This document shows positions 1 through 4,868 of a stretch of 7,817 nt of DNA, one piece after another. Source of the stretch: a virus (lineage: Duplodnaviria > Heunggongvirae > Uroviricota > Caudoviricetes); the IMG/VR virus record IMGVR_UViG_2541047945_000007. The stretch is one strand, 5' to 3'. The notes beneath the pieces are model-generated. The model was not told the DNA's origin and did not search any database. It saw only the letters and a list, made by a program, of their open reading frames with translations. Positions within the stretch are counted from its first letter, which is position 1. Each line of letters begins with the position of its first letter. A program made the position numbers and the translations under genes.

Positions 1-180
1 GCCCCCGGTATCCCGCTCATGCTGGCGAACCCAGACACGCAGAGTCTCCGGCGTACAGCCAATCTTTGGAGCAATGGAACAAATTGTCGCCCATTGTGAG
101 TCATATTCGCCCTGACTTTCCAGAACCATACGGACTGCCCGTTGACGGACTTCAGGGGAAAAACGAGTATTTTTAGTCAT
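1..180 (-). CDS. IS3-family transposase OrfA, N-terminal 60 codons (gene start at 180, runs off the window)
   Basis: Open minus-strand frame from ATG 180..178 to the window edge; SD-like GAGG upstream on the minus strand (GAGGTAAACAGG then ATG); HTH-like N-terminal sequence typical of IS3 OrfA. Confidence 0.8.
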
Positions 181-234
181 CCTGTTTACCTCTTTCTCAG
201 GAAGTTTAGTCTCCAGGATTCCCGGGGCGGTTCA
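1..234 (-). mobile_element. Left end of an IS3-family insertion sequence (IS629/IS1203-like), partial; the element continues beyond the window start
   Basis: Minus-strand translation from the ATG at 180..178 gives [60 protein letters not shown], which I recognise from memory as IS3-family OrfA (IS629-type). The minus-strand sequence ending at 234 begins TGAACCGCCCCGGG, consistent with an IS3-family terminal inverted repeat (TG...CA ends). Only one end is visible, so no target-site duplication can be assessed. Confidence 0.75.
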
Positions 235-379
235 GTATGAAGATATTCAGCAGCCTGCGCAACAACAGACACAACAAGCAACATCTGGCGGTCAAACATT
301 TCGAGAAGGTATGACCGCGAAAAATCCTAAAACTGGTCAGAAAATTATTTACAGGAACGGACAATGGCAACCAATGTAG
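235..379 (+). pseudogene. 3' remnant (47 codons) of a virion gene truncated by the IS insertion; by synteny a P22 gene 20-like ejection protein
   Basis: Frame 2 is open from the first base after the IS end (236) to TAG at 377..379, giving YEDIQQPAQQQTQQATSGGQTFREGMTAKNPKTGQKIIYRNGQWQPM*. It has no start codon of its own and its stop overlaps the next gene start by 16 nt, as in tightly packed late operons. Identity of the gene is inference from position only. Confidence 0.45.
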
Positions 380-2487
380 GTTTACCAGAGGGATTTGTTC
401 TGGATGAACAGCCTGATAACTCACAGCTTCCTGATGGCTTTGTGCTTGATGCCCAACCAGAACAGCAGCAATCTCCTTTGGTTTCACCAGAGGAAAATTC
501 CAGACAGGAAAATGTTGTTAATAATGCTAACGGTTTCGACCGTTTTATGTATGGCGTTCTCAGTGGATTGATGGATGTTGGTAAAGGTGTTGGTCTATTT
601 CAGGATATGACACCAGAAGAGCAAGCCGCAATTCAGTCTCTACAGCAGAAGTTAGCGGCAAAACCATCAACCGTACAAGATGTTGGTGAGTTCGTTGGAC
701 AAGCAGCACCATTTGTTAGTGGTGGTGGGATTATTTCTCAGGTTCCGAAAGGGGCGGCAAGGCTGGCTGCCGCCGCAGGGCTTGGTGCTGGAGAAGGGGC
801 TATTGTAGCCAATGGAACAAATAGCGATGTTGCTTCTGGAGCTGCTATTGGCGCTGTGGCTGGCCCTGTAGCAGAGATTGTTGGTCCAGCTCTTGGGAAG
901 ATTGCAGGAAAAATTAAAAATAGTGCCGGAGATATTTATCGCTCATCCGTAGGGATGGGTAGTAAATCATCTAAAGCAACGTTAAAGAAAGCTGCTGGCG
1001 CAATGGACAATAAATTTATCGGCGGGCAACGAGCTATTCAAGATTTCGCCGATGAAGTTAATCCTGATTTTAACGCGATAAATGCTATTCGTGAGCTAGA
1101 ACTGGAAAATTATGCCACTCCAGGCATGATCTCTAATAATCCTGCTGTCAGGGCTCTTGATAATGCAGTGGCAAGTCTCCCTGGAACAGAGATTAGTGAG
1201 GCGCATAAGCGTTTTATTACTGAATTAGGAAGAAAAGCTGATGAAATGATAACTTCATTTGGGGGAAGCCTTGATAAGCAACTGGTTTCTGACAGGCTTG
1301 CAGATAATTTTGATAAAACCATTTCATCATTACAAAATCAGTCAGATAACATCTACAACAAAATTGCCGAAAAGGTTCCTGTAAGAGACCGGATTGAGGC
1401 AACTAATACATTGAATTTTTTAGAGGATTTTGCTGATGATATAGGTGGAATTGATGAATTATCTCCAATAATGAAGCGGACATTGAACCGACTTGATCCA
1501 AACACCTTGCCAACGTATGGGCGTTTAGATCTCGCTAGAAAGCAGGTTGGGCAAGCTATTGGCAAAGGCTCTGGCCCATTCAAGGATGAAGAAACAGGTG
1601 TTCTTAAAAAGTTATATGCGGCTATAACAGATGACCAACAGGCTGTCGCAGAAAAATATGGCGCAGGGGAGTTATGGACGCTTGGTAAGGAGTTGGTAAA
1701 AACACGAAAATCCATTGAAGATGATGCCGTAACCGTTTTGGGTAGAAAACTTCAGCAATCAGCAATTCCAAAAGTTGAAAGTGCCGTTGTTAATATGGCA
1801 AAAGGAAACGGTGGTGACTTTAGGCAATTAATGAAGTCAATTCCAAAGGATATGCGGCAGGAAGTTGCGCTCACCTCAATGAATAAAGCATTTACCAGCT
1901 ATGCTAAATCACCAGGTCAGCAATTAGGGGTTGATGGATTTGTAAAATGGTATAACGGAATGTCACGCAATGGGGCCAATATGAAGGCTCTCCGTGATGC
2001 TATTGGCACAGATGCATCAAAGCGCCTTGATACGATTTATCAAGCAGCTAAGGCTATGAATAGACTCAATACTGGTAAGCAGTATGCTAGTAGTCTTGTG
2101 GATCAGCAAGTTAATAACTTTCTGAAAGAAAAGGGTAGTCTCGCAAAAATTTATGGAATAGCCTCAAAAGCTGCTGCGGCGGAAGGTATTACAAGCTTAT
2201 CTGGTCTTCCTGGTGTAGGTGCAACAGGGGTGATAACGTCAGCATTGATGTCAGGGAAAACAAGCAGGATAAAGGCTGCTGATGCTCTACTGTCTTCTCC
2301 TGAGTTTAAATCAATGCTATTTCGCCTGCAAAACGCACCTGTAGACAGAGCAGAAGTGAGACGCGTAATAGAAAGGAAACTGATGCAATCTGGGGCATTT
2401 AAGAGATGGGAGAAAACCTTATCAACAGATGAAGCAAAAACCATTGCCCGCACGGGGATTATTACATGGCTCGCTAGTGACAGTTAG
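364..2487 (+). CDS. Internal virion / DNA ejection protein (707 aa); P22 gene 16-like by position
   Basis: 2124-nt ORF; SD AGGAA at 353..357, 6 nt before ATG 364. N-terminal acidic tandem peptide repeat (LPEGFVLDEQP / LPDGFVLDAQP), a long Gly/Ala-rich hydrophobic segment (about aa 107-184), then a long predicted alpha-helical region. It lies immediately upstream of the immI region, as gene 16 does in P22. Functional assignment is from synteny and composition, not recognised sequence identity. Confidence 0.8.
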   Translation: MATNVGLPEGFVLDEQPDNSQLPDGFVLDAQPEQQQSPLVSPEENSRQENVVNNANGFDRFMYGVLSGLMDVGKGVGLFQDMTPEEQAAIQSLQQKLAAKPSTVQDVGEFVGQAAPFVSGGGIISQVPKGAARLAAAAGLGAGEGAIVANGTNSDVASGAAIGAVAGPVAEIVGPALGKIAGKIKNSAGDIYRSSVGMGSKSSKATLKKAAGAMDNKFIGGQRAIQDFADEVNPDFNAINAIRELELENYATPGMISNNPAVRALDNAVASLPGTEISEAHKRFITELGRKADEMITSFGGSLDKQLVSDRLADNFDKTISSLQNQSDNIYNKIAEKVPVRDRIEATNTLNFLEDFADDIGGIDELSPIMKRTLNRLDPNTLPTYGRLDLARKQVGQAIGKGSGPFKDEETGVLKKLYAAITDDQQAVAEKYGAGELWTLGKELVKTRKSIEDDAVTVLGRKLQQSAIPKVESAVVNMAKGNGGDFRQLMKSIPKDMRQEVALTSMNKAFTSYAKSPGQQLGVDGFVKWYNGMSRNGANMKALRDAIGTDASKRLDTIYQAAKAMNRLNTGKQYASSLVDQQVNNFLKEKGSLAKIYGIASKAAAAEGITSLSGLPGVGATGVITSALMSGKTSRIKAADALLSSPEFKSMLFRLQNAPVDRAEVRRVIERKLMQSGAFKRWEKTLSTDEAKTIARTGIITWLASDS

Positions 2488-2774
2488 TCAACTTTGGTTA
2501 TTTTGCCTTCTTTTTCTTGATGAACTTTGCATCCATCATCTTTTGATAGCCAAACTAAAAACTTTAAAACCTTAAACACAAGTACGGCTACTGCAATGAA
2601 AGCACCAATTGCAATTATTGCAAGCGAAATTATTTGCATTGGTGCTTTTAATGCAGGGAAAATAGTGTAAATGATCGCGAAAACAGTAATTATGAGGAAC
2701 CATCGCTTCACACCAACCTCCTTAGTTTTGTGCAGGATACCAGATGGTTTGGAGTGAGATAAAGGTTTGTCCAC
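2484..2774 (-). CDS. Small hypothetical membrane protein (96 aa from a GTG start; possible shorter form from an internal ATG)
   Basis: Minus-strand ORF with two strongly hydrophobic stretches (WFLIITVFAIIYTIFPAL and IISLAIIAIGAFIAVAVLVFKVL). Co-oriented with, and 64 bp downstream of, the PIN gene. GTG start with no clear SD and a T-rich coding strand mean the ORF could partly be a composition artefact. Its stop overlaps the convergent 707-aa gene stop. Confidence 0.4.
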   Translation of the reverse strand: MDKPLSHSKPSGILHKTKEVGVKRWFLIITVFAIIYTIFPALKAPMQIISLAIIAIGAFIAVAVLVFKVLKFLVWLSKDDGCKVHQEKEGKITKVD

Positions 2775-2794
2775 TTTTGGCTATAGCTTTATGT

Positions 2795-2823
2795 ATCCGT
2801 GACGGATGTAATTATCACGGATG
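2795..2823. other. Inverted and direct repeat cluster between the PIN gene and the small membrane-protein ORF
   Basis: ATCCGTGACGGAT (2795..2807) is a palindrome; ATCCGTGA (2795..2802) is the inverse complement of TCACGGAT (2815..2822); ACGGATG occurs twice (2802..2808 and 2817..2823). No T-run follows on either strand, so it is not a clean intrinsic terminator. Confidence 0.4.
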
Positions 2824-2838
2824 CATAAAAATTATATT

Positions 2839-3387
2839 TTAGTGTAATCTCTGATCGTCTGAATCGTGTAAGAACTCCATGAGACTTTGAACCGGAATTG
2901 GTTCTATTGATGATAATGTGAACACAGGAATATTGAGACTTTTGCAACGCTCAAACACTCCCTTATCATGAGTCCATACCTCGTCAGCATTAATTGCTCT
3001 TGCAATTGCTATTATTTGTCTGTCAAACTTAATTTTGTTTGCTGTACCTTCTGTGCTAATTTTCCTTAATTCTTTTAATGTTGGTATCGATGCGCATTCA
3101 ATAGCAGCCAACTCATCAAATGATACAGTTTCGAAGCACGATAACGATTTGATAACATTCAGTTTTTCTTGTTGGTAATCTTTATGGATTCCAACTAAAA
3201 ACTCCGCCAATACAGGAGTTGGAACGATGATTGTCCCGTTCTTGTTATCTATTCGATCAACAAGAGCTTCTGCTCTTCTTTTGGCATCTGGAATCTCAGA
3301 ACCAAGTATAGGGTCAGATAATCTATAATCGTGTTCTATATCTGATAGTAGGTATACCAGAATATTGGTATCTAAAATTACTCGCAA
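2839..3387 (-). CDS. PIN-domain nuclease, VapC-like (182 aa)
   Basis: N-terminus MRVILDTNILVY is the canonical PIN start. The four conserved acidic positions are present in the expected motifs: D6 (ILDTN), E62 (PVLAEF), D122 (KFDRQIIAIA) and D141 (WTHDKGVFER, matching the VapC T-x-x-D...FER C-terminal motif). Start is TTG at 3387..3385 preceded by a good SD (GAGGAA, 7-nt spacer); there is no in-frame ATG. The start overlaps the upstream gene's stop by 10 nt, indicating translational coupling. Confidence 0.8.
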   Translation of the reverse strand: MRVILDTNILVYLLSDIEHDYRLSDPILGSEIPDAKRRAEALVDRIDNKNGTIIVPTPVLAEFLVGIHKDYQQEKLNVIKSLSCFETVSFDELAAIECASIPTLKELRKISTEGTANKIKFDRQIIAIARAINADEVWTHDKGVFERCKSLNIPVFTLSSIEPIPVQSLMEFLHDSDDQRLH

Positions 3388-4097
3388 TTTATCTTCCTCA
3401 GAGTCCTAAGGATTGAATCAACATCGCGTTCCTCGGACCACTGATCTCCAGGAACTTGCTTGATAGCATTAATAGCATCCTTGAGTGATGATTTTTTGAG
3501 CAATACAAATGAAGTTATTTTTAGTTTCTTTAGCTCCCATTTGTTGTTCTTTTTTTCCCAGCACCCATCTCCTTTAACCCTAATATATTTGAATAGATGG
3601 GACCCAAGAGCTGCCGCCAAATCAGGGGTTGCCTCGCACTTGAATGTTTCACCGTTGGCTCCCTCAATACGCACAGGTATTGAGTTGTCTTTTCCGCCAA
3701 CACTGTATAGCCTTCCTTGAACTTCTGACGTTTTTGTTATGAGTAAAGGGATTGGCTCCTTTTTTACTCGCGGGAATGCGATAATGGTTGAGTGGTTTCG
3801 TCCGAGTAGTTTCGCTGAAAAACCATCATGCTCCAGTAAATTAACAATTTTTTGATACGCGGGTGATTTCTCTTTGGCTGAGAGAGAGGCCCTTGCTATG
3901 ACAGCGTTATAACAAATATCATTATCGACCCATGCATTTAAGTCAGCCGATCCTTCACTTACACAGTCGAAGTGAACAGAATCTGCAGAACCGTATAGAT
4001 CTACGAGAGCAGACATATACTTGACCAACTTAGCCATTGACAGCTGGCCAGGGGTGGTTCCGTCAAGTTTTAATGTGAGTCCATTGCTTTTTTTCAT
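3378..4097 (-). CDS. Hypothetical protein (239 aa), upstream partner of the PIN nuclease; no recognisable domain
   Basis: 720-nt minus-strand ORF starting 49 bp downstream of the mnt stop; AT-rich like the PIN gene; ends ...LRKINCE* with its TAA inside the PIN start region. No Walker, HTH or other motif I can identify. The SD is weak (GTGATGACAA then ATG). Confidence 0.7.
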   Translation of the reverse strand: MKKSNGLTLKLDGTTPGQLSMAKLVKYMSALVDLYGSADSVHFDCVSEGSADLNAWVDNDICYNAVIARASLSAKEKSPAYQKIVNLLEHDGFSAKLLGRNHSTIIAFPRVKKEPIPLLITKTSEVQGRLYSVGGKDNSIPVRIEGANGETFKCEATPDLAAALGSHLFKYIRVKGDGCWEKKNNKWELKKLKITSFVLLKKSSLKDAINAIKQVPGDQWSEERDVDSILRTLRKINCE

Positions 4098-4146: not shown

Positions 4147-4401
4147 CTATAACTTACTTTTGCTATAAATATTTTTCAGCGTTTCAAAGACCATCTTCTT
4201 AACAACGTCAGATTGCTCATCCGCGACTCGCTCAGCTTCGTCTCGATAGCCTACAATTGATGATGGCTTTGAGAGAGCATCCTGAACGATTTGTAATAAC
4301 TCAGAGTTCATTGACCTTCCGTTAGCCTCTGCTCTTAATTTCAATTTTTCTCTTACTTCCAAAGGCATACGGAAGTTAAAGTGCGGATCGTCTCTAGCCA
4401 T
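4147..4401 (-). CDS. mnt: Mnt repressor (ribbon-helix-helix), maintenance-of-lysogeny repressor of the immI region
   Basis: Translation MARDDPHFNFRMPLEVREKLKLRAEANGRSMNSELLQIVQDALSKPS... is nearly identical to P22 Mnt as I recall it. Divergent from arc, with the P22-type operators between them. Confidence 0.93.
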   Translation of the reverse strand: MARDDPHFNFRMPLEVREKLKLRAEANGRSMNSELLQIVQDALSKPSSIVGYRDEAERVADEQSDVVKKMVFETLKNIYSKSKL

Positions 4402-4491: not shown

Positions 4492-4650
4492 ATGAAAGGA
4501 ATGAGCAAAATGCCGCAGTTCAATTTGCGGTGGCCTAAAGAAGTATTGGATTTGGTGCGCAAGGTAGCTGAAGAGAACGGGCGATCTGTTAACTCTGAGA
4601 TTTATAAGCGAGTGATGGACAGCCTGAAGAGAGAGGGGATAACGGTATGA
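4492..4650 (+). CDS. arc: Arc repressor (ribbon-helix-helix), 52 aa
   Basis: [52 protein letters not shown] is near-identical to P22 Arc as I recall it. SD GAGG 7 nt upstream of ATG 4492. The longer ORF-track start at 4429 is rejected because it would cover the promoter and operators. Confidence 0.93.
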   Translation: MKGMSKMPQFNLRWPKEVLDLVRKVAEENGRSVNSEIYKRVMDSLKREGITV

Positions 4651-4868
4651 AGTTTATTGAGGTTGATGAGATTGGCTATGAGAATGCACTTGGTAGAGGT
4701 AAATCTTTAGTTAACGTTAATGGCATTGAGTCGATAAGGAGCGGTGAATTTACGGAGATCAGAATGATGTCAGGTGGAATCATTCCTTGCCGTGATTCAG
4801 TAGAGTCAATCAAAGCAAGAATGAGTGGTCAGTGGCTTTATAACTACAGTGACTTACAAAAACAGTGA
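4647..4868 (+). CDS. Hypothetical protein (73 aa) inserted between arc and ant
   Basis: ATG overlaps the arc stop (ATGA at 4647..4650); strong SD GAGAGGGG at 4628..4635. Nothing of this size lies between arc and ant in P22 as I recall it. No recognisable motif. Confidence 0.55.

What the first reader, a model, noticed from the sequence alone, without database searches (positions are those of the whole stretch)
2484..2774. Small two-helix membrane protein downstream of the PIN gene
A 96-codon ORF with two clear hydrophobic helices lies co-oriented just beyond the PIN gene. Small inner-membrane proteins at this locus are plausible superinfection-exclusion factors (P22 SieA is membrane-associated) or a third component or effector of the cassette. 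It may equally be a hydrophobic artefact of T-rich sequence: the start is GTG with no SD, and the only internal ATG also lacks one.
Basis: inference. Interest (0 to 1): 0.4.

Follow-up and report, generated by a model that had tools for sequence, protein, structure and literature searches.

The report
Small membrane gene in sieA slot
The flagged ORF is a real, conserved prophage gene, but it codes for a 75-residue (not 96-residue) two-helix membrane protein that sits exactly where phage P22 keeps its superinfection-exclusion gene sieA and uses sieA's ribosome-binding site and start codon, so it is best read as an independent, untested candidate exclusion factor and not as part of the neighbouring PIN cassette.

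Summary
The ORF at 2484-2774 (minus strand) exists and has two hydrophobic helices, but its start was misplaced. An in-frame GTG at 2711 lies 5 nt after a perfect Shine-Dalgarno (AAGGAGG, 2723-2717), giving a 75-aa CDS (2484-2711).

- **Start codon.** A 34-nt stretch (2709-2742) is 100% identical to the P22 sieA start codon, SD and leader. A second allele class has ATG at the same codon behind a different SD. RefSeq (WP_000832789.1) and PHROG 7294 both give 75 aa.
- **Real gene.** 44 of 45 fetched loci keep the 75-codon frame. A 57%-identical homologue aligns without gaps (dS about 1.0, dN/dS about 0.30; C-terminal tail 0.13).
- **Not part of the PIN cassette.** The gene occurs behind at least seven unrelated upstream contexts. 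The PIN cassette occurs with three different genes at this position.
- **Linkage.** It always abuts the same 707-aa gp16-type ejection-protein gene, with a 4-nt overlap of the stop codons.
- **Wider pattern.** The same leader occurs in 482 of 5,426 complete E. coli genomes and precedes at least eight unrelated, mostly envelope-targeted proteins.

It is not homologous to SieA, and its function is untested. [quoted passage not shown]

The parts
2484..2711 (-). True CDS: 75-aa small membrane protein (GTG start 2711-2709, TAA stop 2486-2484); RefSeq WP_000832789.1, PHROG 7294
   Evidence: SD and GTG. PGAP annotates 228 nt in an identical locus. Full-length PHROG 7294 match, E = 3e-49. ATG at the same codon in the second allele class. 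44 of 45 loci intact. dN/dS 0.30 against a 57%-identical homologue.
2717..2723 (-). Shine-Dalgarno AAGGAGG, 5 nt upstream of the GTG
   Evidence: Read directly from the sequence. Identical in P22 sieA and in 26 of 36 loci fetched at that point.
2712..2746 (-). Conserved 'sieA leader' (CATCTGGTATCCTGCACAAAACTAAGGAGGTTGGT). With the GTG it forms the mosaic junction shared with P22 sieA and with at least seven other unrelated genes
   Evidence: 2709-2742 is 100% identical to the P22 sieA start and leader. Homology with phages EC.P3 and E212 ends at 2746. The leader lies behind at least 6 unrelated upstream sequences and in front of at least 8 unrelated CDS. It is present in 482 of 5,426 complete E. 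coli genomes.
2734..2742 (-). TGGTATCCT: possible extended -10 promoter element inside the leader (inference only)
   Evidence: Invariant across all contexts that carry the leader. A similar TGTATCCT is kept in the divergent locus L037 although the spacer to the SD has changed. No transcription-start data. The consensus scan did not call a promoter here.
2712..2774 (-).
   Evidence: The N-terminal extensions predicted in other contexts are unrelated to each other. The upstream sequences diverge beyond about -37.
2649..2702 (-). Hydrophobic helix 1 (residues 4-21, WFLIITVFAIIYTIFPAL)
   Evidence: Kyte-Doolittle profile. Substitutions among alleles are hydrophobic-for-hydrophobic.
2574..2633 (-). 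Hydrophobic helix 2 (residues 27-46, IISLAIIAIGAFIAVAVLVF)
   Evidence: Kyte-Doolittle profile, peak 3.1.
2487..2546 (-). Conserved charged C-terminal tail (residues 56-75, SKDDGCKVHQEKEGKITKVD), predicted cytoplasmic; the most constrained part of the protein
   Evidence: dN/dS is 0.13 for codons 56-75 against 0.38 for codons 2-55. LSKxDxCKVxQExxGKITKVD is kept in the 57%-identical homologue. The K/R distribution favours N-in/C-in topology.
364..2487 (+). Gene 16-type ejection (DNA transfer) protein, 707 aa, convergent with the small gene; the stop codons overlap by 4 nt (2484-2487). Constant partner of the small gene
   Evidence: Annotated as DNA transfer or injection protein in relatives. 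This gp16 type is adjacent wherever the flank was long enough to test (43 of 45 loci), including the divergent L037. Of 45 complete E. coli genomes with this gp16 type, 34 carry the small gene.

Best explanation
The locus encodes a 75-residue protein (2484-2711, minus strand) with two membrane-spanning helices joined by a loop of about 5 residues, and a conserved, charged 20-residue C-terminal tail. Both termini are predicted to face the cytoplasm. It is a stand-alone accessory gene of a P22-like (Lederbergvirus) prophage. It fills the sieA slot of the variable 'ant moron' between the ejection-protein gene 16 and mnt. It is translated from the same SD and GTG that P22 uses for sieA, and it is oriented against the late operon, like the prophage-expressed genes sieA and mnt. 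It is not a component of the adjacent PIN cassette. Shown: the gene model, its purifying selection, its independence from the PIN cassette, its constant linkage to one gp16 type, and the shared leader. Inferred (probability about 0.4): it is made in the lysogen, inserts into the inner membrane, and acts as a non-homologous functional analogue of SieA. That is, it would block DNA delivery by superinfecting P22-like phages at the inner membrane, by disturbing the gp16/gp20 conduit or a host factor the conduit needs. The conserved cytoplasmic tail would be the specific interaction surface.
For: Gene model: SD plus GTG; PGAP 75 aa; PHROG 7294, 75 of 75 profile positions; ATG at the same codon behind a different SD in 9 loci. 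Selection: 44 of 45 loci intact; variable sites by codon position 16/2/10; dS 1.0 and dN 0.30 with no indel against P0022; simulation. Membrane character. sieA slot and signals: 34 nt identical to the P22 sieA start, SD and leader, with the annotated PsieA directly upstream in P22. In about ten loci the whole 110 nt upstream are the P22 PsieA region, so only the CDS has been swapped. In P22, 85 bp upstream of sieA suffice for exclusion from a single copy (PMC10883804). [quoted passage not shown] Prophage-side operon: in the ATG allele class the gene follows, 28 nt downstream, two genes that follow mnt. In the window it follows mnt, the 239-aa gene and PIN, with no terminator-like site in between. 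Independence from PIN. Linkage to gp16. Seven of eight gene families that use the leader have an N-terminal signal peptide or transmembrane segment.
Against: There is no sequence or profile similarity to SieA (BLASTP E = 3.6; hhalign probability 0.3%). The protein lacks the FxRYPxEAxxFNK motif and has 2 rather than 3-4 transmembrane segments (PMC10883804). There is no experimental datum for this family in any paper found, and no PADLOC, Pfam, NCBIfam or PDB match. The slot also holds a soluble 140-aa protein and secreted proteins of unknown function, so position alone does not fix function. With N-in/C-in topology almost nothing is exposed to the periplasm, where gp20 acts. The linkage to gp16 has a trivial explanation: overlapping stop codons leave no intergenic DNA in which to recombine. 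The same gp16 type also occurs with four other slot contents. Promoter activity in the window's own upstream context is unproven. AlphaFold2 gave one continuous helix rather than a hairpin, at modest confidence.
Confidence: 0.42

Rival explanations
1. A prophage-expressed small membrane protein with a function other than phage exclusion. It could, for example, modulate a host inner-membrane transporter, sensor or stress response, acting as a lysogenic-conversion or fitness factor in the way chromosomal small membrane proteins do.
For: The same leader drives a YobH-family protein and several secreted proteins of unknown function. The gene is retained intact in a prophage whose gene 20 is disrupted by an IS3-family element, which suggests benefit to the host. 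There is no homology to any known exclusion protein.
Against: The family is confined to P22-like prophages next to one ejection-protein type, with only two clusters at 50% identity among 1.84 billion representatives. Such narrow, phage-bound distribution fits a phage-phage interaction better than a general host function. The slot's only characterised occupant is an exclusion protein (PMC10883804).
Confidence: 0.3
2. A partner of its neighbouring gp16 ejection protein. It would be a cognate factor co-inherited with the 707-aa gp16 type, for example one that spares or specifically targets that conduit type, or acts during the phage's own infection cycle.
For: Every fetched copy whose flank was long enough to test (43 of 45) abuts this gp16 type with the same 4-nt stop overlap. 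This includes the homologue that is 57% identical, whose gp16 is 78% identical. Recombination breakpoints lie at the start codon and leader, so the slot gene and gene 16 move together.
Against: 11 of 45 E. coli genomes with this gp16 type carry other slot genes, namely the 140-aa gene and the 129-aa gene followed by YobH. The 129-aa slot gene occurs with two gp16 types. Physical adjacency suffices to explain the linkage. The gene is antisense to the late operon, so co-expression with gp16 is unlikely. P22 SieA shows no such specificity (PMC10883804).
Confidence: 0.12
3. A third component or membrane effector of the upstream 239-aa and PIN cassette.
For: It is co-oriented and lies 127 nt downstream of PIN, with no canonical terminator between. 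Six complete E. coli genomes share the whole arrangement.
Against: The identical cassette (99.8%) is followed by a 62-aa or a 109-aa gene in other prophages, with the breakpoint at the GTG. Of 44 fetched loci that carry the small gene (L004 apart, which is the window's own arrangement), none carries the cassette. The gene has a conserved translation initiation region, shared with sieA, that does not belong to the cassette.
Confidence: 0.03
4. Not a gene: a chance hydrophobic ORF in AT-rich, T-rich DNA.
For: ORFs of 100-120 codons occur by chance in this window. GC content is 34.6%. One metagenomic copy has a 1-nt deletion.
Against: Perfect SD and a conserved start. 44 of 45 loci intact. Codon-position bias and dN/dS below 1. 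Ungapped 75-codon alignment at dS about 1.
Confidence: 0.02

Closest known systems
P22 SieA (superinfection exclusion protein A; types A, B and C; PHROG 7745)
   Same: Same genomic slot (between gene 16 and mnt in the ant moron of P22-like phages), same strand, and the same SD, GTG and 34-nt leader. It is a membrane protein with a conserved, probably cytoplasmic C-terminal element. It is convergent with gene 16, whose product is implicated as SieA's target (PMC10883804).
   Different: No detectable homology. 75 aa against 162-200 aa; 2 rather than 3-4 transmembrane segments; no FxRYPxEAxxFNK motif. Function untested.
T4 Imm and HK97 gp15 (small inner-membrane proteins that block phage DNA entry)
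   Same: Small phage-encoded membrane proteins, with no enzymatic domain, that stop injection at the inner membrane (my own knowledge, and the review PMC11436027). HK97 gp15 is likewise a moron expressed from the prophage.
   Different: No sequence relationship was detected: the PHROG scan returned only two families of unknown function. They belong to different phage types with different DNA-delivery machines. The resemblance is in kind only.
'Ant moron' accessory genes of P22-like phages (Villafane et al. 2008, PMC2629481)
   Same: [quoted passage not shown] The 75-aa gene is one such gene. Its GC content is lower than that of the flanking gene 16 (34.6% against 43.6%).
   Different: The papers read here do not describe this gene. 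They also do not describe the sieA leader being reused as a common entry point for many unrelated envelope-protein genes.
PHROG 7294 / RefSeq WP_000832789.1 (hypothetical protein)
   Same: Full-length membership (E = 3e-49, 75 of 75 positions); identical protein annotated by PGAP.
   Different: Nothing beyond the name: no function is assigned.

Membership tests
P22 SieA family (types A/B/C) | Detectable sequence homology to SieA | tested here: not met
   BLASTP E = 3.6. hhalign probability 0.3%. The two proteins fall in different PHROGs, 7294 and 7745.
P22 SieA family (types A/B/C) | Conserved cytoplasmic motif FxRYPxEAxxFNK near the C-terminus (PMC10883804) | tested here: not met
   The 75-aa sequence has no such motif. 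Its conserved tail is LSKxDxCKVxQExxGKITKVD.
P22 SieA family (types A/B/C) | About 160-200 aa with 3-4 predicted transmembrane helices | tested here: not met
   75 aa with two hydrophobic segments.
P22 SieA family (types A/B/C) | Located between the gene 16 and gene 9 homologues of a P22-like prophage, transcribed against the late operon | tested here: met
   Window gene order is gp16, small gene, PIN, 239-aa gene, mnt, arc, ant, tailspike. The start aligns with the P22 sieA start.
P22 SieA family (types A/B/C) | Inner-membrane localisation | not testable with these tools
   Only a hydropathy and positive-inside prediction. AlphaFold2 was uninformative.
P22 SieA family (types A/B/C) | Blocks DNA injection by P22-like phages; escape mutations in gp16/gp20 | not testable with these tools
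   Needs plating, K+ efflux and escape-mutant experiments.
PHROG 7294 | Full-length match to the family profile | tested here: met
   E = 3e-49, residues 1-75 on profile positions 1-75 of 75.
Component of the 239-aa + PIN cassette | Consistent co-occurrence with the cassette | tested here: not met
   The cassette occurs with three different downstream genes. The gene occurs with at least seven upstream contexts. Among the fetched loci only L004, the window's own arrangement, combines gene and cassette.
Moron (independently expressed accessory gene inside a phage operon) | Present or absent among otherwise syntenic relatives; composition differs from flanks | tested here: met
   Replaced by other genes in syntenic prophages. 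GC content 34.6% against 43.6% for gene 16.
Moron (independently expressed accessory gene inside a phage operon) | Own promoter | tested here: inconclusive
   A conserved TGGTATCCT in the leader could be an extended -10. About ten loci carry the full P22 PsieA region. The window's own context gave no consensus promoter in the scan. No transcript data.
T4 Imm / HK97 gp15-type injection blockers | Sequence homology | tested here: inconclusive
   The PHROG scan gave only families 7294 and 27630, both of unknown function. No direct pairwise test was run because those sequences were not at hand.

The most novel reading that the evidence does not exclude
The 38-nt sieA leader would be a recombination 'port' through which P22-like prophages exchange a repertoire of non-homologous envelope proteins that are all DNA-injection blockers. 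The known members are SieA, this 75-aa hairpin, a 62-aa hairpin, a 109-aa anchored coiled coil, a YobH-like protein and others. On this reading the 75-aa protein is a minimal two-helix blocker that travels with, and is functionally matched to, the 707-aa gp16 ejection-protein type. Exclusion genes and ejection genes would then co-evolve as one arms-race module.
Probability: 0.15. Interest if true: 0.6.

Novelty: new member of a known kind. Interest (0 to 1): 0.35.

Why it matters
SieA is the only characterised occupant of this slot, and how it blocks the P22 ejection-protein conduit is still unknown. A 75-residue, non-homologous protein under the same expression signals would be a much simpler handle on that mechanism if it also excludes phages. 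Its single conserved cytoplasmic tail would be the obvious place to start. The shared leader, present in 482 of 5,426 complete E. coli genomes, also gives a one-line way to harvest at least eight families of candidate envelope-acting prophage proteins, several of which current pipelines do not annotate. If the protein does not exclude phages, it is simply one more small moron gene of unknown function. The practical gain would then be limited to the corrected gene model and the exclusion of a three-gene PIN system.

Tried and rejected
- **AlphaFold2** on a 16-sequence alignment gave one continuous helix (residues 2-70, pLDDT 76, pTM 0.37). This is uninformative for a hairpin, so no fold search was run.
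- **Profile search** of 1.84 billion representatives found only one true distant homologue, P0022. The other two hits were low-complexity repeat proteins.
- **Genome-contig scan** (one genome per species) found nothing. The metagenome scan found only close relatives.
- **Family libraries.** No Pfam, NCBIfam, PADLOC or PDB hit for the small protein.
- **Literature.** A search for the RefSeq and PHROG identifiers found nothing. The HK97 gp15 paper is not held.
- **Phage L/ST64T 'orf62'.** I considered that the 62-aa slot gene might be this gene. tblastn did not hit those phages, so I make no such claim.
- **Intrinsic terminator between PIN and the small gene.** The 16-bp hairpin at 2787-2830 has no U tract, so I rejected this.
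- **Cleaved signal peptide.** I considered helix 1 as one and rejected it by inspection: -3 is Leu and +1 is Pro at the only A-x-A-like site.
Full report
**Context.** The window is the right end of the virion gene cluster and the 'ant moron' (immI region) of a P22-like (Lederbergvirus) prophage of E. coli. The gene order is as follows:
- a 707-aa gene 16-type ejection protein (364-2487, +)
- the flagged ORF (minus strand)
- a PIN-domain gene (2839-3387, -)
- a 239-aa gene overlapping it by 10 nt (3378-4097, -)
- mnt (4147-4401, -)
- arc (4492-4650, +)
- a 73-aa gene
- ant
- the tailspike gene

In P22 the position between gene 16 and mnt is occupied by sieA.

**The observation.** A 96-codon ORF from GTG 2774 to TAA 2484 is present, and its product has two strongly hydrophobic stretches. 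Four independent lines fix this as the start:
1. Window 2709-2742 is 100% identical to P22 DNA. That DNA runs from the annotated sieA start codon through its SD and leader to the edge of the annotated PsieA promoter.
2. PGAP annotates a 228-nt CDS (WP_000832789.1) in an identical E. coli locus. The PHROG 7294 profile is 75 positions long and matches end to end.
3. A second allele class (MKQW...) has ATG at exactly this codon, behind a different SD (GGGAGG-ACAAC). It lies 28 nt after the stop of an upstream gene.
4. The 21 'extra' codons differ completely between genomic contexts.

The gene is therefore 2484-2711, coding for 75 aa.

**Is it a real gene?** ORF length alone is not significant, because the same window has 100- and 120-codon ORFs antisense to gene 16. 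Conservation is.
- Of 45 loci fetched from phage, E. coli, viral-contig and metagenome collections, 44 keep an intact 75-codon frame (35 start with GTG, 9 with ATG). One metagenomic contig has a single-base deletion in a T run.
- Among 19 distinct DNA alleles, the 28 variable sites split 16/2/10 by codon position. The scarcity at position 2 (P = 0.0013) is the signature of hydrophobic-for-hydrophobic exchange.
- A profile search of 1.84 billion representative proteins found one genuine distant homologue, P0022: 75 aa, 57% identity, no gaps.
- Against P0022, dS is about 1.0 and dN is 0.30. The C-terminal 20 codons are the most constrained (dN/dS 0.13, against 0.38 for the membrane part).
- In a simulation, only 8.6% of sequences with 70 random substitutions stay open. 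None of 20,000 exceeded the observed amino-acid identity.

The 'T-rich artefact' reading is excluded.

**Relation to the PIN cassette.** The two assort independently. The same 239-aa + PIN + mnt block (99.8% identical) is present in other E. coli prophages, where homology to the window stops at 2706-2709, the start codon. In those prophages a different gene follows. One is a 62-aa two-helix ORF that PGAP does not annotate. The other is a 109-aa protein with an N-terminal hydrophobic helix and a coiled coil. Conversely, the 75-aa gene is found behind at least seven unrelated upstream contexts. These include the authentic P22 PsieA region, a Panacea/SocA-type pair, a ClpP-like protease gene, a P63C gene, and a two-gene operon after mnt. 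None of the other 44 fetched copies has the PIN cassette; L004 is the window's own arrangement. The 'third component' idea is therefore not supported.

**What it always travels with.** Wherever the flank could be tested (43 of the 45 loci), the gene abuts the same 707-aa gp16 type (97.7-100% nucleotide identity), with the two stop codons overlapping by 4 nt. The divergent homologue in locus L037 shows the same arrangement next to a gp16 that is 78% identical. In complete E. coli genomes, 45 carry this gp16 type and 34 of them carry the gene. The other 11 have different slot contents, with the breakpoint in the last 18 nt of gene 16. Simple adjacency explains this linkage. A functional pairing is possible but not required.

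**The shared leader.** A roughly 38-nt sequence, CATCTGGTATCCTG..CAAAACTAAGGAGGTTGGTGTG, is found in 482 of 5,426 complete E. coli genomes. In the sample I could fetch, it precedes at least eight unrelated coding sequences:
- P22 SieA (164 aa)
- this 75-aa gene
- the 62-aa ORF
- the 109-aa protein
- a 140-aa soluble protein
- a 68-aa YobH-family protein
- a 99-aa protein with a signal peptide
- a 129-aa protein with a signal peptide

Seven of the eight begin with a signal peptide or a transmembrane segment, and several share even the first codons (MKRW). The leader thus acts as a mosaic junction, and the slot as a cassette site for envelope-directed prophage proteins. The literature already describes the region as a hypervariable 'ant moron' (PMC2629481; PMC8022706). 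It also reports that only a third of P22-like phages have sieA (PMC10883804). I did not find the reuse of the leader described in the papers I read. The invariant TGGTATCCT within the leader resembles an extended -10 element, but this is inference only.

**Likely mechanism.** The distribution of lysine and arginine predicts an N-in/C-in helical hairpin. There are 2 at the N-terminus, 1 in the 5-residue loop and 3 just after helix 2. This places the conserved tail LSKxDxCKVxQExxGKITKVD in the cytoplasm.

The gene is oriented against the late operon and lies on the mnt side. In many loci it sits behind the P22 PsieA region. In P22, 85 bp of that region suffice to drive enough SieA from a single copy to give a 10^7-fold exclusion (PMC10883804). 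Expression from the prophage is therefore likely, but it has not been shown.

[quoted passage not shown] Its escape mutations lie in the C-terminal regions of gp16 and gp20, and its best-conserved motif is also cytoplasmic. By position, regulation and cellular compartment, the most economical hypothesis is that the 75-aa protein is a non-homologous analogue of SieA. I give this about 0.4.

It is not a member of the SieA family. There is no sequence or profile similarity, no motif, half the size and fewer helices. The main rival is a different membrane-level conversion function (about 0.3). A gp16-cognate role is less likely (about 0.12). Both the PIN-component and the artefact readings are effectively excluded.

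**Novelty and verdict.** The sequence is already in RefSeq and PHROGs as a hypothetical protein. The family is very narrow, confined to E. coli and Salmonella P22-like prophages, two isolated phages (EC.P3 and E212), and one divergent metagenomic lineage. New here are:
- the demonstration that the gene is independent of the PIN cassette;
- the exact sharing of sieA's initiation region;
- the broader observation that many unrelated envelope proteins use that leader.

Interest is moderate to low. It is a sound, testable candidate exclusion factor of a known kind, not a surprise.

Noticed in passing
window 2709-2746 (minus strand); loci L001-L045: The 38-nt sieA leader (possible extended -10, SD and GTG) occurs in 482 of 5,426 complete E. 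coli genomes. It precedes at least eight unrelated CDS, seven of them with an N-terminal signal peptide or transmembrane segment. Some, such as the 62-aa two-helix ORF, are not annotated by PGAP.
   Followed up: partly
window 1-234: This is the end of an IS3-family insertion sequence, 100% identical to many chromosomal and plasmid copies. Prophage homology begins at 235, inside the 3' end of the gene 20 (ejection protein) homologue, so this prophage is probably defective. No complete E. coli genome in the collection has this junction. A near-identical prophage (CP091756) instead has an IS3 element truncating gene 16.
   Followed up: partly
window 2787-2830 (minus strand): A 16-bp hairpin lies between the PIN stop and the small-gene leader. 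It has no U tract, so it is not a canonical terminator. The 146-nt stretch folds with z = -2.8. The hairpin travels with the PIN cassette and is also present in L005 and L006. It contains the direct repeat CATCCGTGA / CATCCGTCA.
   Followed up: partly
window 2839-4097 (minus strand): The PIN-domain gene (182 aa; weak VapC-like similarity) and the preceding 239-aa gene overlap by 10 nt and sit directly downstream of mnt. They fall in PHROG 21691 and 19868, both of unknown function, and have no PADLOC hit. The block is present in about 32 complete E. coli genomes. It may be an uncharacterised toxin-antitoxin or defence pair.
   Followed up: partly
loci L002, L007, L010, L037, L041, L042: Other ant-moron contexts of the same small gene carry a Panacea/SocA-like antitoxin-domain gene with a partner, a ClpP-like protease gene, a P63C-domain gene, or a coiled-coil 186-aa + 92-aa pair. 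The region behaves like a small defence and toxin-antitoxin island.
   Followed up: no
locus L033 about 1640-1700: One metagenomic copy of the small gene has a single-base deletion in a T run (TCATTTAC to TCATTAC) that breaks the frame. It is either a pseudogene or an assembly error.
   Followed up: yes
window 4647-4868 (+): A 73-aa gene lies between arc and ant (PHROG 11805, unknown function; no Pfam hit). P22 has only the sar region at this position.
   Followed up: no
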